Positions 1 to 4,413 of a stretch of DNA of 4,413 nucleotides are shown piece after piece; the stretch's first letter is position 1; the number at the start of each line of letters is the position of its first letter. Position numbers and translations under genes: made by a program. Source of the stretch: a virus (lineage: Duplodnaviria > Heunggongvirae > Uroviricota > Caudoviricetes); the IMG/VR virus record IMGVR_UViG_2778261454_000003; one strand, given 5' to 3'. The notes beneath the pieces are model-generated. The model had not been told where the DNA came from, did no database searches, and saw only the letters and a program-made list of their open reading frames with translations.

Positions 1-40
1 CGCTTACCGCTCATGGGCACCTCTCTTTAAGCCATCTTAA

Positions 41-400
41 ATGACTCTGAGGTGTCTGTTAAACCCGTGGCGATTCAGTATGAGCATTATCAGTACTGCT
101 AAAGGTGCTGCAAATGGACAATTCCACGGCGGCATAGATGAGCTACCAGCAGGGTATGATAACAAATCATTCGTACTTAAAGCTGGTGAACGTGTAGTAC
201 AACCTGAAGCTAACAAGAAACTAACAGCATTTCTTGATAAACATGAAGGGGGTAGTAGTTCTGGTGATGTGACCATTAACGCACCTTTGATCATTCAAGG
301 TGATGTAGCTGGTGATGATAAGAAATTCAATGAAATGTTGAAGAAACATCAAAACAGTGTAGCACAGGCTTACAGAAGCTCTATTAAGCGTAATTCATAA
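41..400 (+). CDS. Lambda-type tail tape measure protein, C-terminal domain-like ORF (possible orphaned fragment; start uncertain, ATG 41 or ATG 80)
   Basis: Open frame from ATG 41 to TAA 398-400, followed at once by a hairpin terminator. The translation (Gly-rich stretch, then ELPAGYDNKSFVLKAGERVV ... DVTINAPLIIQGDV ... FNEMLKKHQNSVAQAY) resembles in pattern my recollection of the lambda gpH C-terminus (unverified, no search run). Position just upstream of gpM-like/gpL-like genes matches lambda H-M-L order. Hand-counted GC about 43% on one 60-nt stretch. No clear Shine-Dalgarno before either candidate ATG, and an in-frame TAA at 38-40 closes the frame upstream. Confidence 0.55.
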   Translation: MTLRCLLNPWRFSMSIISTAKGAANGQFHGGIDELPAGYDNKSFVLKAGERVVQPEANKKLTAFLDKHEGGSSSGDVTINAPLIIQGDVAGDDKKFNEMLKKHQNSVAQAYRSSIKRNS

Positions 401-428
401 GAAAGCCCGATTAGGGCTTTCTGTTTCT
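400..428. terminator. Bidirectional intrinsic (rho-independent) terminator hairpin between convergent genes
   Basis: Perfect inverted repeat GAAAGCCC (401-408) / GGGCTTTC (414-421) with 5-nt loop GATTA (409-413), extendable by an A400:T422 pair. On the + strand it is followed by the T-rich tract TGTTTCT (422-428). On the - strand it is followed by TTATGAATTA (complement of 391-400). It sits directly after the + ORF stop at 398-400 and overlaps the stop codon of the - strand ORF (411-413). Confidence 0.6.
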
Positions 429-1037
429 CATATATTCCTTTTTTATTTTATATACAACCTTACGCATTCTATTTGCTTTTATCTTTCTAAGTAATTCACT
501 GAAACTAAAAATTGTGCTAATCGCAATGAGGAAAGTGTACACAAAAAGATTAATTAGCTTTCCGCTTTCAAAGTCCCAGAAAGGTTTGAATATGAAAACC
601 CCAACAAATAGCGGAAGTAAAAAACATCCAATCAATGAACTAACTACAGCAACACTAAGAATGTCTCCTTTTGAACTTTTTTTGATTTTACCATTCTTTG
701 GATTGTAAGCATCTCGTAATCCTTTATAAATTTTCAGTTCTAAGTTGAATTTCTCCAACTGAGAATAAAAATTCTCAATTTGTTTAATAGTTGTAAATTT
801 TAAATTCGTTTTGAAGTTGAATTTTGCTATGTCATGTTCAGCTTGCTCTATTTTAGCTAATTTTTCATTGAAATATTGCTTTTCGCCAATGAATATGCCC
901 CATATTTTATTAGCGACTATAGCCATGCTTCCACTACGATAGACAATATAAAGTGTGACCACGACAATCATCACATTAAGTAGTATTGCGGTTATTGCTG
1001 GAAATGACTTTATAAAAAGCTCAAAAGAATCTTTCAT
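411..1037 (-). CDS. Hypothetical integral membrane protein (208 aa, predicted 3 TM helices, basic C-terminal tail); moron-like antisense gene, candidate superinfection-exclusion/defence protein
   Basis: A 627-nt open frame in very AT-rich DNA (hand-counted about 25-33% GC on three 60-nt stretches), where stop codons are frequent by chance, so coding is likely. Hydrophobic segments at residues 12-33 (FPAITAILLNVMIVVVTLYIVY, nt 939-1004), 126-150 (ILSVAVVSSLIGCFLLPLFVGVFIF, nt 588-662) and 162-179 (LINLFVYTFLIAISTIFSF, nt 501-554). A charged, heptad-like region lies between them (residues 52-110). The C-terminal tail (residues 184-207, nt 417-488) carries about 12 Lys/Arg in 24 residues. Opposite orientation and lower GC than the flanking tail genes. 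No recognisable Shine-Dalgarno before ATG 1035-1037. No family recognised. Confidence 0.7.
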   Translation of the reverse strand: MKDSFELFIKSFPAITAILLNVMIVVVTLYIVYRSGSMAIVANKIWGIFIGEKQYFNEKLAKIEQAEHDIAKFNFKTNLKFTTIKQIENFYSQLEKFNLELKIYKGLRDAYNPKNGKIKKSSKGDILSVAVVSSLIGCFLLPLFVGVFIFKPFWDFESGKLINLFVYTFLIAISTIFSFSELLRKIKANRMRKVVYKIKKEYMRNRKP

Positions 1038-1054
1038 GGATAAATACTCTAAAC

Positions 1055-1069: not shown

Positions 1070-1098
1070 ATTATGGCATCTTTTTCAAATAATGTGAA
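1070..1098 (-). promoter_or_regulatory. Candidate sigma70-type promoter for the minus-strand membrane-protein gene
   Basis: Read on the - strand: -35 TTCACA (complement of 1093-1098), a 17-nt spacer, then -10 CATAAT (complement of 1070-1075) preceded by TG one base upstream (TGcCATAAT, extended -10-like). The predicted transcript start near 1062 gives a leader of about 25 nt before ATG 1037. Sequence pattern only; the -10 overlaps the start codon of the divergent gpM-like gene. Confidence 0.25.
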
Positions 1099-1630
1099 GG
1101 TTACAAACTTTCAAATTAAAAGTACTGAACCAATTTACTCTAATCAAACATGGTCAGGGCAACGTATCATGAGATCAACGGGTATTCAGTTCTACAATAT
1201 TCAGTTCACACTCAATTTCAATCCTTCAGCACTAACTGAAGTTAATAGCTTTTTAGCTCAGTACGCACAAGGTAAACCATTTACTTTCTCACTTGGTGTA
1301 GCTGGTATATATCATGGTACACAAACTGGCTCAGTTACCAGTACTGGATTAATTCAACCTGGAAATATGATTATCCCAACAAGTAGCAATACATTAGCTG
1401 TTGGTGAATGGATTCAATTCACTAATCATAACAAGCTATATCGAATTGTAGAGCGTGCTGGAACAAGTATTACTATCTTTCCCGCACTACAGAATACAGT
1501 ACAGGCAAGTGAAGTAATCAAATATAACAACCTCATGATAGAGGCGGTATTAGATCCTGATAATGATTACACAATGCCAGTAGGTAACATTATGAACATC
1601 ACACTAAAGGCTACAGAGAACATACAATAA
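1073..1630 (+). CDS. Minor tail protein, lambda gpM-like (185 aa, with a C-terminal extension relative to lambda gpM)
   Basis: ATG 1073 with a Shine-Dalgarno just upstream; stop TAA 1628-1630 overlaps the next start (TAATG). The N-terminal ~80 residues (WSGQRIMRSTGIQFYNIQFTLNFNPSALTEVNSFLAQYAQGKPFTF) resemble in pattern the remembered lambda gpM core (YSQR ... KTYSVTLSVPREEATVLESFLEEHGGWKSFLW). Synteny: lies between the tape-measure-like ORF and gpL/J-like genes. Hand-counted GC about 40%. Confidence 0.8.
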   Translation: MASFSNNVKVTNFQIKSTEPIYSNQTWSGQRIMRSTGIQFYNIQFTLNFNPSALTEVNSFLAQYAQGKPFTFSLGVAGIYHGTQTGSVTSTGLIQPGNMIIPTSSNTLAVGEWIQFTNHNKLYRIVERAGTSITIFPALQNTVQASEVIKYNNLMIEAVLDPDNDYTMPVGNIMNITLKATENIQ

Positions 1631-2253
1631 TGAATGCTAGTACATACACAAATGCTAATCTTCTCAAGTACTGGAAATTAGTTAGAGGAACTACCAAAAC
1701 ACAACTAAGCCTAATGGATATTATGAGTTTAGGCGTTTTCGTAACGTGTTTTGATGTACTACCAAAAGGTACAAATGGTTTTCACTGGACTGATTCACTA
1801 ATTGATATTCCTCTTGATGGTTATCAATATACAAGTTTTCCCGATATTATCAGTGGTTTACTACCTTCATACTCTGAACAAAAGGGTATTACGAATGATG
1901 CTATTAACTTCAAGATAAGTAATGTAAATGCTTCAGTACGTGCTCTTGCTTTGGGCGGGTTCCTTAAAGATGCTCAGATGAATATCAAGTTAGTTATCTT
2001 GAATCCATATGATAGTACTGTAATTGATTCAATGCTTATGTTTACTGGATTCATTGATTACATTCAAGCCGTAGCAGATCCAAATGCTAAAACCAATGAA
2101 ATGACTGTATATGTCAATTCTGTATATAAGAAACTTGATCGTCAACCAGCTCTAATAGCTGCTAATTCAGTATATCAATCTTATTACAAGGGTGATGAAT
2201 ACTTTTCATTACTTGGTCAGGTTAACCAAAATCAAAATTGGAAATACAAATAA
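1630..2253 (+). CDS. Putative minor tail protein, lambda gpL-like by position (207 aa)
   Basis: ATG 1630 overlaps the upstream stop (TAATG), indicating translational coupling; stop TAA 2251-2253. Assignment rests mainly on gene order (after gpM-like, before the small tail protein and J-like gene) and size. Sequence resemblance to lambda gpL is weak and from memory; the C-terminal Cys cluster of lambda gpL is not evident. Confidence 0.7.
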   Translation: MNASTYTNANLLKYWKLVRGTTKTQLSLMDIMSLGVFVTCFDVLPKGTNGFHWTDSLIDIPLDGYQYTSFPDIISGLLPSYSEQKGITNDAINFKISNVNASVRALALGGFLKDAQMNIKLVILNPYDSTVIDSMLMFTGFIDYIQAVADPNAKTNEMTVYVNSVYKKLDRQPALIAANSVYQSYYKGDEYFSLLGQVNQNQNWKYK

Positions 2254-2657
2254 TGAAAAATCTACATAACGAAATTATGAATATCATTCAAACAGCAATT
2301 GATAGCCCTTATCAGTTCGGAACTAATGATTGTAACATTATAGTACTCCGATTAATTGACTTAATTAACGGTACTACAACCCTATCAGATCGCCAATATA
2401 CGAGCGTTAAAGAGGGTATAGCGGGTTTAAACAAGGAAGGATGGAACCACACAGGGGAAATAGTTGAAGCCTATTGTAAGCCCGTACAACACGTTATAGA
2501 TGGTGATATCTGGCTAGATCCTGATAACCCTCTAATCATGGCAGTAGTCGTATCAGGTCGTGTACTTGGTGTTACTGCTAATCATGACGGTTTTGAACTT
2601 CAACCGAAGCCAACAAAAGGAACATATTATAGAGTAAGGAAACATATAGATGGGTAA
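2253..2657 (+). CDS. Small tail-tip protein (134 aa from ATG 2253; 139 aa if ATG 2238), possible papain-fold (NlpC/P60-like) peptidase, gpK-like by position
   Basis: ATG 2253 overlaps the upstream stop TAA 2251-2253 (same TAATG coupling as at 1630); the alternative ATG 2238 would overlap the upstream gene by 16 nt. Stop TAA 2655-2657. Contains a Cys in a G-x-x-D-C context (YQFGTNDCNIIV) and downstream His residues (WNHTGEIVEAY, QHVIDGD, ANHDGFEL), as expected for NlpC/P60 Cys-His catalytic residues. Motif-level evidence only; no JAB/MPN-like domain is apparent. Confidence 0.7.
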   Translation: MKNLHNEIMNIIQTAIDSPYQFGTNDCNIIVLRLIDLINGTTTLSDRQYTSVKEGIAGLNKEGWNHTGEIVEAYCKPVQHVIDGDIWLDPDNPLIMAVVVSGRVLGVTANHDGFELQPKPTKGTYYRVRKHIDG

Positions 2658-4308
2658 GAGTTTAGGCGGCTTTTTTGGAGCCATTATAACAGCGGTCGTA
2701 GTTGCTGCTGCGGTCTACTTTTCAGGAGGAACGGCATTAGCTGCGGTTGGTTGGGGTGCTGCGGCAGGGGCAGTAAGTTTAGTTGCTACATCTATGCTAG
2801 CTCAAGTAGGGGTAACGGGTTATGGGGATGTATCGGATAGTATAAGTAGGTCAGTTTCCCCAACTACCGGATTGCCAGTACTGTTTGGTGGCGATCTTCC
2901 TCATAAGAATGGTACTTCAGGCGGTTCATTTGTTCTAACTGGTAGTATTGTTAGTTGGTACAACGTACCTGATTCAGATTCACAGTACCTATTTTCTGAA
3001 CAAGCAGTAGCGTATGCGGGTACTGAAAAACATATTGAACAAATTTACATTGATAATGAAGCAGTACTATCAGCCCCAATTACGCAAGATGGAATAGTAC
3101 CGAAAACATCTATTTCTGGTAAATATGCCGATGTACTCCAATTGGAAGTACGTTTTGGTGGTGATTATACAAGTACTAAATCCCTAGCAACTCAATACGC
3201 TGGACCGAAATGGACTAATAAATTTCTTGGTAAAGGTGTTGTTAGTATCAGTACTGTTATCAAGAAAACTCAAAAATCACTTGAAAATAACATTCTCGTA
3301 AATGACCAATTCGCACTAACTGTAGAAATGAAAGGTCAACGTATCTTTGATTTTGTAGATGGTACTATTAAAGCTAGTAGTAATCCACCTTCGATTATAT
3401 ACGATTACTTAACCAATACTGTGTATGGTATGAGTATTGATCCTAGTCTTATCAATCAAGATACATTCGCAGAAACTGCGGCATATTGTGATGCTTTTGA
3501 AATGTACGCCAACGGGGCAATTAGTTATCAAAGTACATTTATGGATAACATTGAAAATATTTGTCAGAGTTTTGGCGGTATCATGTATGTACACGCGGGG
3601 CAGATATGCCTAACTACAGACCGTAAAACTGTATCTGTAGCGTCATTTAATGAGCGTAATATGGTTGGTGGTATACAGGTTAGTACTTCAGGTGTATCAG
3701 ATTATTTCAACGCCGTAGATTGTAAATTCAAAAACCCTCAATCAATCTACACAACGGATGTAGTACGTATTCCTTCAGATATTACCATTGATGAAGCAAT
3801 CCAACATGACGGGCAAGTTATAGCATTATCACGTGATTATACTTGGAGTTATGATCAAGAAGTCATAGCTAAAATGGCAAACATAGATGTACTAAAAGCA
3901 AAATATGCCCTACGTACTATCAGCTTTACTACAAGTGAAGGATGGGATTTAAAAGTATGGGATGCTATTGATGTTAGTAATGATGAACTTGCTATTTCAG
4001 GTAAATTTAAAGTACTGAATAAAGATGTTAGTACTGATCAAGAGAATATTGGCTACGTTACTATCACTGCGGTGGAGGCACCAGATCAGATGTATGATGG
4101 CGTTGATCCGGGTGTATGGTCGCCGGGTGGTGTGATTAGCTTCCCTCAGCTATCAGTACTTCCACCATCTAACCTACAGGCTGTTAAGAAAGGTAATACT
4201 ACTGCTGGTTCGGTTATTGATCTAACGTGGGATGCTTCACCAGATCCATACCTACGCGGTTATTATGTGTACTATAAACTTAATAGTTCTTTGATCCTAC
4301 CCACGTAA
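2650..4308 (+). CDS. Tail tip / host-specificity protein, lambda gpJ-like N-terminal region fused to a gpI-like Gly/Ala-rich hydrophobic N-terminal segment; ends prematurely within an FN3-like domain (552 aa)
   Basis: ATG 2650 with AAGGA (2636-2640) 9 nt upstream; overlaps the upstream stop (ATGGGTAA). Residues 1-90 (GGFFGAIITAVVVAAAVYFSGGTALAAVGWGAAAGAVSLVATSMLAQVGV ... GLPVLFGG) resemble the hydrophobic Gly/Ala-rich segment I recall in lambda tail assembly protein I. Residues about 240-330 (IIYDYLTNTVYGMSIDPS ... AAYCDAF ... ICQSFGGIMYVHAGQICLTTDR) resemble the remembered conserved J-family tail-tip domain (lambda J: WCLWDMLTHPRYGMG ... QYCDQ ... TLTFVQDR). Near the C-terminus YVTITAVEAP is followed by PPSNLQAVKKGNTTAGSVIDLTWDASPDPYLRGYYVYYK, an FN3-like beginning. 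Stop TAA 4306-4308. Lambda J is over 1100 aa, so this ORF looks truncated. Confidence 0.85.
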   Translation: MGKSLGGFFGAIITAVVVAAAVYFSGGTALAAVGWGAAAGAVSLVATSMLAQVGVTGYGDVSDSISRSVSPTTGLPVLFGGDLPHKNGTSGGSFVLTGSIVSWYNVPDSDSQYLFSEQAVAYAGTEKHIEQIYIDNEAVLSAPITQDGIVPKTSISGKYADVLQLEVRFGGDYTSTKSLATQYAGPKWTNKFLGKGVVSISTVIKKTQKSLENNILVNDQFALTVEMKGQRIFDFVDGTIKASSNPPSIIYDYLTNTVYGMSIDPSLINQDTFAETAAYCDAFEMYANGAISYQSTFMDNIENICQSFGGIMYVHAGQICLTTDRKTVSVASFNERNMVGGIQVSTSGVSDYFNAVDCKFKNPQSIYTTDVVRIPSDITIDEAIQHDGQVIALSRDYTWSYDQEVIAKMANIDVLKAKYALRTISFTTSEGWDLKVWDAIDVSNDELAISGKFKVLNKDVSTDQENIGYVTITAVEAPDQMYDGVDPGVWSPGGVISFPQLSVLPPSNLQAVKKGNTTAGSVIDLTWDASPDPYLRGYYVYYKLNSSLILPT

Positions 4309-4309
4309 T

Positions 4310-4413
4310 ATGGACACAGGCCTAAGCGAGGTTCTTGTTTTCAAATTGTTCCGGACTGAGGCCGCCACACCAACTGTGCCGCCGCCACCGATTGTAATCA
4401 CATTCGATATAAT
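4310..4413 (+). CDS. Possible start of a downstream ORF, or a frame-shifted continuation of the J-like gene (partial, runs off the window end)
   Basis: ATG at 4310-4312, one nt after the J-like stop. The +1 frame is open from 4295 to the window end (SYPRNMDTGLSEVLVFKLFRTEAATPTVPPPPIVITFDI...), including a Pro-rich linker-like motif. No Shine-Dalgarno. Hand-counted GC about 50% over 4309-4413. A minus-strand frame is also open across 4300-4413, so coding strand and reality are unresolved. Confidence 0.2.
   Translation, partial: MDTGLSEVLVFKLFRTEAATPTVPPPPIVITFDI

What the first reader, a model, noticed from the sequence alone, without database searches (positions are those of the whole stretch)
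411..1037. Antisense, AT-rich three-helix membrane protein gene inserted in the tail gene cluster (moron; candidate superinfection-exclusion or defence gene)
A 208-aa ORF runs opposite to all surrounding tail genes. Its hand-counted GC (about 25-33%) is clearly lower than the tail genes (about 37-43%). It has its own candidate promoter and shares a terminator with the upstream gene, which are the hallmarks of a horizontally acquired moron expressed independently of the late operon. The protein has an N-terminal TM helix, a charged heptad-like region of about 60 residues, two further TM helices and a very basic C-terminal tail. A membrane protein placed next to the tape measure gene recalls the HK97 gp15-type superinfection-exclusion moron (established example), but this protein is larger and I recognise no family. 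It could block DNA injection, act as an abortive-infection or membrane-disrupting effector, or be a toxin-like module.
Basis: partly seen in the sequence, partly recalled or inferred. Interest (0 to 1): 0.78.

Follow-up and report, generated by a model that had tools for sequence, protein, structure and literature searches.

The report
Swappable prophage membrane-protein gene (DUF6216)
An antisense gene wedged between two tail genes of an enterobacterial prophage encodes a three-helix inner-membrane protein of the uncharacterised DUF6216 family; it sits in a slot where related phages carry nothing or a different gene, so it is a genuine accessory "moron", probably protecting the lysogen against other phages, though that function is untested.

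Summary
The ORF at 411..1037 (minus strand, 208 aa) is real. It has three transmembrane helices and is under purifying selection (dN/dS about 0.07).

The window is a prophage tail fragment cut at both ends by IS3-family elements. Intact 36-kb prophages in Enterobacteriaceae carry the identical protein.

Among 31 related viral contigs, the junction between the tape measure (TMP) and distal tail (Dit) genes varies:
- 14 are empty (59-70 bp) and 2 hold 132 bp.
- 3 carry DUF6216.
- 8 carry an unrelated one-helix membrane protein.
- 3 carry a DUF726 hydrolase.
- 1 carries IS1.

All cargo is antisense. Every short-form DUF6216 whose neighbourhood could be read (down to 25% identity) sits in this slot. 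Near-identical phage backbones carry alleles only 43-68% identical, which indicates cassette exchange.

An antisense extended -10 promoter overlapping the Dit start codon tracks with cargo presence. The phage's own ATAAATA promoter-like motif is absent upstream of the gene.

The low-GC argument fails, because GC3 matches the neighbours. No homology to HK97 gp15, P22 SieA, TolQ/ExbB or PADLOC families was found.

Moron status is strongly supported. Superinfection exclusion is the leading but untested function.

The parts
1..77 (-). Terminal part of an IS3-family insertion sequence (annotated ISEhe3 orfA or IS3-family transposase in matching records). It truncates the tape measure gene.
   Evidence: 94.8-100% nucleotide matches to IS copies in phage and E. 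coli records. The boundary ...GGCGATTCA was seen in L065.
78..400 (+). 3' fragment of the tape measure protein (TMP) gene, about the last 106 codons. The ORF at 41..400 is a chimera that starts inside the IS.
   Evidence: PHROG tape measure families (phrog_13674 E 8.9e-22). 94-98% identical to the C-terminus of 732-806 aa TMPs in intact prophages.
400..422 (.). Bidirectional terminator hairpin AGAAAGCCC-GATTA-GGGCTTTCT between the convergent TMP and DUF6216 genes. One arm plus the loop encodes the protein's conserved C-terminal R-K-P-stop. It also marks one boundary of the exchangeable cassette.
   Evidence: Terminator scan. Folds at -15.6 and -14.2 kcal/mol with z -5.4 and -4.1. Conserved in DUF6216 loci and some one-helix-cargo loci, while empty slots carry a different GGGGC/GCCCC hairpin. 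Nucleotide identity between backbones recovers here.
411..1037 (-). DUF6216 short-form gene, 208 aa. Predicted inner-membrane protein: TM1 (12-33), cytoplasmic helical domain A (34-125), TM2-TM3 hairpin (126-180), basic cytoplasmic tail (181-208).
   Evidence: ORF. Pfam PF19723 E 3.4e-20, 72.9 bits. Hydropathy and charge. AlphaFold pLDDT 92.3. dN/dS 0.073. Identical protein in intact prophages.
1040..1046 (+). ATAAATA motif 33 nt upstream of the Dit start. This promoter-like element recurs in this phage lineage and marks the other boundary of the cargo slot.
   Evidence: Conserved in all relatives, whether the slot is occupied or empty. 30 of 33 occurrences in four divergent loci lie 15-80 nt upstream of a same-strand gene start, against 0.4-0.7 per locus expected. 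It is the only occurrence in the window.
1070..1098 (-). Candidate sigma-70 promoter for the DUF6216 gene: -35 TTCACA (1098-1093), 17-nt spacer, extended -10 TGc-CATAAT (1078-1070). The CAT is the complement of the Dit ATG. The predicted transcription start is near 1063.
   Evidence: Best promoter-like match in the window. TG + A2 + T6 is present in 12 of 12 DUF6216 loci (five different hexamers) and 6 of 6 one-helix-cargo loci, but in 0 of 14 loci without cargo.
1073..1630 (+). Distal tail protein (Dit), 185 aa
   Evidence: phrog_1302 distal tail protein E 3.5e-16. Weak match to the pb9 B domain.
1630..2253 (+). Tail protein, 207 aa. This is the most conserved gene of the cluster and was used to fetch relatives.
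   Evidence: phrog_2048 tail protein E 7.2e-24. 31 related loci.
2253..2657 (+). DUF6950 tail-associated protein, 134 aa
   Evidence: Pfam PF22262 E 1.1e-9. phrog_2134.
2650..4291 (+). N-terminal 547 codons of a J-like central tail fibre / tail tip protein, truncated by IS3
   Evidence: phrog_31 central tail fiber J E 1.2e-40. Full-length homologues are 1067-1100 aa with the Phage_Tail_Tip domain.
4292..4413 (-). Right end of IS3 (TGATCCTACCC...), inverted
   Evidence: 100% match over 4292-4413. Thousands of E. coli IS3 copies match.

Best explanation
The gene is an accessory 'moron' cassette of a temperate siphophage lineage of Enterobacteriaceae. It sits in a dedicated cargo slot at a natural transcription boundary, between the terminator hairpin that follows the tape measure gene and the ATAAATA promoter-like element that precedes the distal tail gene.

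It is transcribed antisense to the tail genes from its own host-type (sigma-70, extended -10) promoter, which overlaps the Dit start codon, and it ends at the shared hairpin. It can therefore be made from the repressed prophage, independently of the phage's structural-gene programme.

The product is a short-form DUF6216 protein, predicted to span the inner membrane three times. The N-terminus and a 10-residue loop face the periplasm. The conserved ~90-residue helical domain and the basic tail face the cytoplasm.

The most likely role is protection of the lysogen from other phages, acting at the inner membrane at or just after DNA entry. This would be superinfection exclusion, as with HK97 gp15 or P22 SieA. 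Divergent alleles would be exchanged between phage backbones because they differ in which invaders they exclude.

Shown: the gene, its family, its predicted topology, slot polymorphism, cassette exchange and purifying selection. Inferred: promoter use, expression in the lysogen, and the exclusion function.
For: - Real, selected gene: Pfam DUF6216 at 72.9 bits; dN/dS 0.073.
- Slot polymorphism: of 31 related viral contigs, 14 are empty, 2 hold 132 bp, 3 carry DUF6216, 8 carry a one-helix protein, 3 carry DUF726 and 1 carries IS1. All cargo is antisense. An E. coli chromosomal relative also has an empty slot.
- Tight association: every short-form DUF6216 whose neighbourhood could be read occupies this slot, from 98% down to 25% identity.
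- Cassette exchange: L006, L015 and L051 share 95-100% identical flanks (Dit dS 0.009-0.035), but their alleles are 43-68% identical with saturated dS. The identity drop coincides with the ORF.
- Independent expression signals: the antisense extended -10 is present in 12 of 12 DUF6216 loci and 6 of 6 one-helix-cargo loci, and in 0 of 14 loci without cargo. There is a stable bidirectional hairpin. The lineage's ATAAATA motif precedes Dit, the tail tube, the fibre gene and even the antisense lysozyme gene, but never DUF6216.
- Topology: three hydrophobic helices with a positive-inside charge pattern; model pLDDT 92.3; long-form relatives insert a Cys-x24-Cys domain where the short form has its 10-residue loop.
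- Analogy: P22 sieA is a 3-TM inner-membrane protein gene lying antisense and convergent right after the DNA-ejection genes (PMC10883804). HK97 gp15 is an inner-membrane moron next to the TMP gene that blocks DNA injection (PMC3594210).
- The lineage carries defence-type cargo elsewhere: a KAP NTPase at the prophage end matches PADLOC PDC-S20 at E 1e-78 to 1e-83.
- Long-form DUF6216 genes lie on plasmids beside an EexN entry-exclusion lipoprotein and AbiE modules.
Against: - There is no functional evidence of any kind: no expression data and no phenotype.
- There is no sequence or structural similarity to any known exclusion or defence protein. PADLOC returned none. SieA comparison gave E 14 and hhalign probability 0.4%. 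PDB and viral fold searches returned only generic helical hairpins.
- Almost all conserved residues are predicted to be cytoplasmic and periplasmic exposure is tiny. That is not what a blocker meeting an incoming tail in the periplasm would obviously need.
- Allele identity is not coupled to the resident TMP: TMP 3' ends are identical beside 43%-identical alleles.
- The promoter hexamers overlap Dit codons, so their conservation is partly forced by coding, and the loci are phylogenetically related.
- GC3 gives no sign of foreign origin.
- The long-form contexts are few and heterogeneous.
Confidence: 0.45

Rival explanations
1. It is an abortive-infection or other post-entry defence effector. 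The membrane protein would sense infection through its cytoplasmic domain and then depolarise or permeabilise the inner membrane via the TM2-TM3 hairpin, killing or arresting the cell before the invader matures.
For: - The context arguments are the same as for exclusion: moron slot, alternative cargo, cassette exchange.
- The conserved mass is cytoplasmic, which suits a sensor.
- Long-form relatives lie next to AbiE toxin-antitoxin modules on two unrelated plasmids and near a PIN-domain gene.
- A defence-type KAP NTPase is carried in the same prophages.
Against: There is no match to any PADLOC model, no recognisable pore-forming or enzymatic fold and no partner gene in the slot. AbiE adjacency on plasmids may be coincidental.
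Confidence: 0.2
2. It is a lysogenic-conversion or host-fitness membrane protein unrelated to phage defence, for example one that modulates an envelope, transport or stress function of the host.
For: - Morons have diverse roles (PMC3594210).
- DUF6216 long forms also occur as stand-alone genes among ordinary metabolic genes in Klebsiella pneumoniae.
- Nothing ties the protein to phage components.
Against: Deeply divergent alleles swapped between near-identical backbones, and replacement by unrelated membrane proteins at the same site, are more typical of conflict genes than of housekeeping-type benefits.
Confidence: 0.15
3. It serves the phage's own lytic cycle, for example lysis timing, exclusion of secondary adsorbers during lytic growth, or help with tail or TMP handling at the membrane.
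For: It lies inside the tail module beside the TMP gene. It is conserved under purifying selection.
Against: - It is absent from 16 of 31 relatives with otherwise conserved tail genes, and replaced by unrelated genes in 11.
- It is antisense to the tail genes.
- It lacks the ATAAATA motif that precedes the structural and lysis genes.
- A separate holin-like gene exists near the lysozyme gene.
Confidence: 0.07
4. It is a TolQ/ExbB/MotA-like stator subunit or a decoy of one, interfering with Tol- or Ton-dependent processes.
For: - It has the same size and topology as TolQ/ExbB: TM1, a large cytoplasmic helical loop, a TM2-TM3 hairpin and a cytoplasmic C-terminal helix.
- TolQ and ExbB chains dominated the non-significant top of a Foldseek list obtained with the first, lower-confidence model.
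Against: - Those matches had E above 1, probability at most 0.2 and TM-scores of 0.2-0.3.
- There is no Pfam MotA_ExbB hit and no profile match to any solved structure.
Confidence: 0.03

Closest known systems
Pfam DUF6216 (PF19723), canonical long form (260-305 aa), found in Pseudomonadota chromosomes and plasmids
   Same: They share the N-terminal module: TM1, the juxtamembrane R-x-G-S...W...G-x-K motif and the D-x-x-(K/R)-F-N helix (D69 and F73 are over 90% conserved across 90 sequences), then TM2. The score is well above the Pfam cutoff.
   Different: - The phage form matches only model positions 3-139 of 270.
- It lacks the ~80-residue domain with the conserved Cys-x24-Cys pair between TM2 and the last TM, which is replaced by a 10-residue loop.
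- It occurs only in one prophage slot, whereas long forms are stand-alone plasmid or chromosomal genes.
- No function is known for either form.
HK97 gp15 moron (YebO-related superinfection exclusion protein; Cumby et al. 2012, summarised in PMC3594210)
   Same: Both are morons inside the tail module next to the tape measure gene, encode an inner-membrane protein, and have bacterial non-phage homologues that share the N-terminal part but differ at the C-terminus.
   Different: - There is no sequence relationship: no YebO hit in Pfam.
- gp15 is a small protein lying upstream of the TMP gene. This one is 208 aa with three TM helices, downstream of the TMP gene and antisense.
- gp15's exclusion phenotype is demonstrated; this one's is not.
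P22 SieA (PMC10883804)
   Same: - Both are predicted three-TM inner-membrane proteins with a cytoplasmic segment between TM1 and TM2 and a cytoplasmic C-terminus.
- Both genes lie antisense and convergent directly after the genes for the proteins that conduct DNA across the envelope (P22 genes 7, 20 and 16; here the TMP gene), each with its own promoter.
- Both families have very divergent sequence types.
   Different: - There is no detectable homology: BLASTP E 14, hhalign probability 0.4%.
- SieA is 162-164 aa and comes from a podophage.
- The similarity between SieA's FxRYPxEAxxFNK motif and DUF6216's EHDxAKFNFK is superficial, and the motifs sit in different positions relative to the TM helices.
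Cargo or defence hotspots of temperate phages (the general moron concept, Juhala et al. 2000 as cited in PMC3594210)
   Same: A fixed inter-gene site holds alternative, unrelated cargo genes with their own expression signals, and is empty in some relatives.
   Different: - This hotspot lies between the TMP and Dit genes of a lineage with no close sequenced isolate. Only one distant hit (24% identity) was found in 50,697 phage records.
- The cargo is bounded by a terminator hairpin that also encodes the cargo's C-terminus, and by a lineage-specific ATAAATA element.

Membership tests
Pfam DUF6216 (PF19723) | Whole-protein score above the curated gathering threshold | tested here: met
   72.9 bits against a cutoff of 27.3, E 3.4e-20. 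NCBI also names the identical protein a DUF6216 family protein.
Pfam DUF6216 (PF19723) | Full-length architecture of the 270-position model (TM1, domain A, TM2, Cys-pair domain B, TM3) | tested here: not met
   Only model positions 3-139 align, to residues 6-141. Domain B with Cys-x24-Cys is present in long forms and replaced here by a 10-residue loop. This is a short-form architectural variant.
Pfam DUF6216 (PF19723) | Conserved family motifs in the shared module (R-x-G-S, W...G-x-K, D-x-x-K/R-F-N) | tested here: met
   R34, G36, S37, W46, G51, K53, D69 and F73-N74 are present. D69 and F73 are at least 90% conserved in the 90-sequence alignment.
Moron (accessory transcription unit in a phage genome) | Present in some and absent from other closely related phages at the same site | tested here: met
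   14 empty slots, 2 with 132 bp, 3 DUF6216, 8 one-helix protein, 3 DUF726 and 1 IS1 among 31 contigs.
Moron (accessory transcription unit in a phage genome) | Own terminator | tested here: met
   Hairpin at 400-422, stable on both strands. The hairpin type differs between cargo-bearing and empty slots.
Moron (accessory transcription unit in a phage genome) | Own promoter | tested here: inconclusive
   Best sigma-70-like site in the window. The extended -10 is present in 18 of 18 DUF6216 or one-helix-cargo loci and in 0 of 14 loci without cargo. However, it overlaps Dit codons, the loci are related, and there are no transcript data.
Moron (accessory transcription unit in a phage genome) | Base composition deviating from the surrounding genes | tested here: not met
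   GC is 30.6% against 36.6%, but GC3 is 29.2% against 23.6-30.8% for neighbours. Other phage genes have 29-31% GC.
Moron (accessory transcription unit in a phage genome) | Expressed from the repressed prophage | not testable with these tools
   Needs RNA-seq or 5'-RACE on a lysogen.
HK97 gp15 / YebO family | Sequence homology to YebO/gp15 | tested here: not met
   The Pfam scan at E up to 0.1 returned only DUF6216 and a sub-threshold TMEM18 match.
HK97 gp15 / YebO family | Blocks phage DNA injection when expressed | not testable with these tools
   Needs plating and DNA-entry assays.
P22 SieA family | Sequence or profile similarity to SieA | tested here: not met
   BLASTP E 14. hhalign probability 0.4%.
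P22 SieA family | Three-TM inner-membrane protein encoded antisense next to the DNA-delivery protein genes | tested here: met
   Predicted topology. Gene arrangement compared with P22. This shows resemblance in kind only, not membership.
MotA/TolQ/ExbB (PF01618) | Sequence-profile or significant structural match | tested here: not met
Known anti-phage defence families (PADLOC-DB v2) | Match to any defence-protein model | tested here: not met
   No family at E up to 0.1 for this protein or for the two alternative cargo proteins.

The most novel reading that the evidence does not exclude
DUF6216 would be a previously unrecognised family of inner-membrane DNA-entry exclusion proteins carried by mobile elements. 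The short form would be a swappable specificity cassette in a prophage tail-gene slot, blocking genome delivery by siphophages. The plasmid-borne long form, with an added periplasmic Cys-pair domain, would do a related job against phage or conjugative DNA entry; one copy sits next to an EexN entry-exclusion gene. The divergent alleles would encode different exclusion spectra, maintained by frequency-dependent selection.
Probability: 0.3. Interest if true: 0.7.

Novelty: new member of a known kind. Interest (0 to 1): 0.5.

Why it matters
If the function holds, an uncharacterised Pfam family would gain a role in phage exclusion, and the list of single-gene inner-membrane exclusion proteins (HK97 gp15, P22 SieA, T4 Imm) would gain a structurally distinct member. 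That member would come with a ready-made natural allele series (25-98% identity in one genomic slot) for mapping specificity.

Independently of function, the locus is a clean example of a cargo hotspot placed at a terminator/promoter boundary inside a tail operon. Three unrelated antisense cargo genes compete for the same site, and the shared terminator hairpin doubles as the cargo's last codons and as a recombination boundary. The two other cargo genes (a one-helix membrane protein and a DUF726 hydrolase) become candidate defence genes by association.

Practically, such prophage genes affect phage-therapy host range in E. coli, Enterobacter and Klebsiella.

Tried and rejected
- Homology to P22 SieA through the FNK-like motif. 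Rejected.
- Low GC as evidence of foreign origin. Rejected, because GC3 equals that of the neighbours.
- Nearby IS ends as a shared junction. The two IS ends of the window lie about 100 bp apart in some E. coli genomes, which might have meant a shared deletion junction. Rejected: the intervening DNA is unrelated.
- Searches that found nothing useful:
  - PHROGs, NCBIfam and PADLOC for the protein.
  - tblastn against 50,697 phage records.
  - The viral structure library.
  - Rfam and tRNA scans.
  - Literature on DUF6216, PF19723 and DUF726.
- Profile word-index search. It found no relatives beyond the nine close ones. The exhaustive HMMER search was needed to reach distant ones.
- Genome-wide pattern scan with the 90-sequence alignment.
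- AFDB50 fold search. Unavailable.
- Sigma-70 consensus scans in divergent loci. They did not consistently call a promoter. The direct tabulation of the extended -10 was more informative.
Full report
**What is in the window**

The 4413-bp window is a fragment of a prophage tail module cut at both ends by insertion sequences. Positions 1-77 are the end of an IS3-family element, and 4292-4413 are the inverted right end of IS3. Between them lie:
- the last ~106 codons of a tape measure protein (TMP) gene, ending at 400;
- the antisense ORF under study (411..1037, minus strand);
- a distal tail protein gene (Dit, 1073-1630);
- a 207-aa tail protein gene (1630-2253);
- a DUF6950 gene (2253-2657);
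- the first 547 codons of a J-like tail-tip gene (2650-4291).

The central 4.2 kb has no close nucleotide match in 50,697 phage records, in PLSDB plasmids or in 5,426 complete E. coli genomes. The identical 208-aa protein does occur in intact ~36-kb prophages in Enterobacteriaceae assemblies and in an IMG/VR contig. NCBI names it 'MULTISPECIES: DUF6216 family protein [Enterobacteriaceae]'.

**Checking the observation**

- Hydropathy gives three transmembrane helices at about 12-33, 126-150 and 161-180. A 75-residue charged helical region lies between the first two, and the C-terminal tail has 12 K/R in 28 residues.
- An AlphaFold model built on a 90-sequence alignment is confident (pLDDT 92.3, pTM 0.80). 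It shows helices 2-35, 39-49, 58-77, 84-96, 123-150 and 158-205.
- The hairpin at 400-422 is stable on both strands: -15.6 and -14.2 kcal/mol, z -5.4 and -4.1.
- The best sigma-70-like site in the window is antisense at 1098..1070.

The composition claim is only directionally right. GC is 30.6% against 33-40% for the neighbours, but GC3 is 29.2% against 23.6-30.8%. Several genes of the intact phage are equally AT-rich. The low GC follows from a Lys/Ile/Phe/Asn-rich membrane protein, not from foreign codon usage.

**Family**

Only model positions 3-139 of 270 align.

An exhaustive HMMER search of 1.84 billion representatives found 102 relatives. They fall into two forms:
- a few short forms of about 200-220 aa that align end to end;
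- about 90 long forms of 260-305 aa that share only TM1, the ~85-residue domain A and TM2.

Long forms add an ~80-residue domain with a conserved Cys-x24-Cys pair before the last TM helix. That pair suggests a periplasmic disulfide. It places domain A and the basic tail in the cytoplasm, in agreement with the positive-inside charge pattern. The short form replaces that domain with a 10-residue loop.

No paper in the searchable library discusses the function of DUF6216.

**The slot**

All nine close homologues (56-98% identity) lie at exactly the same place: antisense between the TMP and Dit genes of the same ~35-38 kb prophage type. So do the distant short forms P0010, P0011, P0015 and P0016, at 42%, 35%, 22% and 25% identity to the window protein.

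Relatives were then fetched through the conserved 207-aa tail protein, which gave 31 viral contigs. The TMP-Dit junction is variable:

| Slot content | Contigs |
|---|---|
| Empty (59-70 bp) | 14 |
| 132 bp | 2 |
| DUF6216 | 3 |
| Unrelated 190-aa protein with one N-terminal TM helix | 8 |
| 260-aa DUF726 alpha/beta-hydrolase-like protein | 3 |
| IS1 | 1 |

All three cargo genes are antisense. An annotated E. coli chromosomal relative also has an empty slot. This satisfies the defining feature of a moron.

**Cassette exchange**

Three loci (L006, L015, L051) have nearly identical flanks:
- Dit is 99% identical with dS 0.009-0.035.
- The 207-aa protein is 99-100% identical.
- TMP 3' ends are 95-100% identical at the nucleotide level.

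Their DUF6216 alleles are only 68%, 43% and 43% identical, with saturated synonymous divergence. Sliding-window identity collapses to 0.4-0.7 exactly over the ORF and recovers at the terminator hairpin and at the start codon.

These are therefore old, divergent alleles moved between backbones by recombination, not products of fast local divergence. Where dS is not saturated, dN/dS is 0.073. Conservation within the close set is concentrated in four stretches:
- the juxtamembrane stretch YxxYRSGS..ANKIWGxFIGEK;
- the E-x-x-EHDxAKFNF helix;
- GLRDxYxP;
- the TM2 and TM3 cores.

**Expression signals**

In every relative, occupied or empty, the TMP stop is followed by a GC-rich hairpin, and an ATAAATA element lies about 30-35 nt upstream of the Dit start. 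Cargo always sits between these two.

In four divergent loci, 30 of 33 ATAAATA occurrences lie 15-80 nt upstream of a same-strand gene start. Shuffled sequences give a mean of 0.4-0.7 and a maximum of 2-4 per locus. The motif precedes the fibre, tail tube, Dit, post-J, lysozyme and GIY-YIG genes. That includes the lysozyme gene, which is also antisense to the tail genes. It never precedes DUF6216.

From my own knowledge, TATAAATA is the phage T4 late-promoter consensus. I did not test whether this lineage uses a comparable sigma factor.

DUF6216 instead has an antisense extended -10 whose CAT is the complement of the Dit ATG (TGc-CATAAT at 1078-1070). The combination TG + A2 + T6 is distributed as follows:

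| Locus type | Loci with the full combination |
|---|---|
| DUF6216 (five different hexamers) | 12 of 12 |
| One-helix cargo | 6 of 6 |
| No cargo | 0 of 14 |
| DUF726 | 0 of 3 |

The DUF726 genes begin about 64 nt from the Dit start. I did not search that interval for a separate promoter.

The caveats are that the site overlaps Dit codons and that the loci are related. Consensus scans in divergent loci were inconsistent.

The hairpin arm AGAAAGCCC plus the loop TAA encodes the conserved C-terminal R-K-P-stop. The terminator, the cassette boundary and the last codons therefore coincide.

**Function**

No direct evidence exists. Searches for similarity gave the following:
- The protein and the two alternative cargo proteins match no PADLOC model.
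- An early hint of TolQ/ExbB similarity reduces to shared topology.
- P22 SieA is the best analogue in kind. It is a 162-164 aa, three-TM inner-membrane protein whose gene lies antisense and convergent right after the DNA-ejection genes (PMC10883804). There is no homology to it.
- HK97 gp15 is an inner-membrane moron beside the TMP gene that blocks DNA injection (PMC3594210). It is also unrelated in sequence.

Indirect support for a conflict role comes from four observations:
- Divergent alleles are swapped between near-identical backbones, and unrelated membrane proteins compete for the same site.
- The same prophages carry a KAP NTPase at a second variable site that matches the PADLOC candidate PDC-S20 at E 1e-78 to 1e-83.
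- Long-form DUF6216 genes sit in plasmid accessory regions, once beside an EexN entry-exclusion lipoprotein and twice beside AbiE modules.
- Other long-form contexts are unremarkable.

**Verdict**

- The feature is real, and the moron interpretation is strongly supported (about 0.9).
- The specific function is unproven. I rate inner-membrane superinfection exclusion as most likely (about 0.35-0.45). Abortive or other defence follows (about 0.2), then a non-defence host benefit (about 0.15) and a phage-cycle role (under 0.1).
- In kind, it is a new member of a known class: a prophage moron in a cargo hotspot, encoding a protein of a catalogued but uncharacterised family.
- Interest is moderate. 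The locus offers a natural allele series and two further candidate genes for experimental follow-up.

Noticed in passing
window 1-77 and 4292-4413: Both ends of the window are IS3-family insertion-sequence ends: an ISEhe3-like element on the left and IS3 itself, inverted, on the right. The tail fragment is therefore an IS-truncated prophage remnant. The ORF at 41..400 is a chimera whose first ~13 codons come from the IS.
   Followed up: yes
window 1040-1046; L002, L006, L052, L056 throughout: An ATAAATA motif lies 15-80 nt upstream of most structural and lysis gene starts in this phage lineage: 30 of 33 occurrences against fewer than 1 per locus expected. This includes the antisense lysozyme gene. 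It resembles the T4 late-promoter consensus TATAAATA (recalled from memory). Whether the phage encodes a matching sigma factor was not examined.
   Followed up: partly
L025 3422-3997, L029-L032 and L034-L036 about 4870-5442 (minus strand): Alternative cargo in the same slot: a 190-191 aa protein with a single N-terminal TM helix (WQAASVIVAMLLF...). It has no Pfam or PADLOC match, uses the same antisense extended -10 and, in some loci, the same AGAAAGCCC hairpin.
   Followed up: partly
L021 and L022 4592-5380, L039 4593-5375 (minus strand): A third cargo type in the same slot: a 260-262 aa DUF726 alpha/beta-hydrolase-like protein with a GHSLG motif (Pfam E 4e-12 to 7e-13). It has its own different hairpin, begins about 64 nt from the Dit start, and has no PADLOC match.
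   Followed up: partly
L033 about 4604-5444: In one relative the slot is occupied by an IS1 copy (InsA/InsB ORFs), with slot GC of 50%.
   Followed up: no
L037 5311-5444, L038 4152-4285: Two relatives have a 132-bp slot. It contains an extra inverted repeat (GTGACTACCTTA...TAAGGTAGTCAC) ahead of the usual hairpin and ATAAATA element. It may be a scar or a small regulatory element.
   Followed up: no
L066-L073 323-1435; L071 121-1398; L018 514-1803: There is a second variable cargo position at one end of the prophage. It holds a DUF3800 protein (370 aa), a KAP-family NTPase (425-429 aa) that strongly matches the PADLOC candidate defence family PDC-S20 (E 1e-78 to 1e-83; weaker matches to PifA and QatA), or other ORFs in L002 and L006.
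   Followed up: partly
window 411-422: The protein's conserved C-terminal Arg-Lys-Pro-stop is encoded by the terminator hairpin arm AGAAAGCCC and the loop TAA. The terminator, the last codons and the recombination boundary therefore coincide.
   Followed up: yes
L061 6987-7283 and 7884-8714; L013 6379-8783; L064 2846-5598: Long-form DUF6216 genes on plasmids lie next to an EexN entry-exclusion lipoprotein (Providencia sp. R33) and next to AbiEi/AbiEii modules (Robbsia andropogonis, Providencia alcalifaciens). Some Providencia copies are truncated.
   Followed up: partly
window 733-752 and 805-824: A 20-nt imperfect direct repeat (80% identity) 72 nt apart inside the ORF corresponds to two KFN(L/F) motifs 24 residues apart in the cytoplasmic helical domain. 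It is possibly a chance match.
   Followed up: no
L001 174-1016: The HAD-family hydrolase gene flanking the prophage in an assembly labelled Kosakonia cowanii has only 38% GC (GC3 28%), like the phage. It may belong to the mobile element and not to the host chromosome.
   Followed up: no
L001, L002, L006 about 14100-17330: This phage lineage places a 946-1068 aa Peptidase_S74 (intramolecular chaperone) fibre-like gene between the head and tail-tube genes. It also has a fused S78 protease-capsid gene, which is an unusual module order.
   Followed up: no
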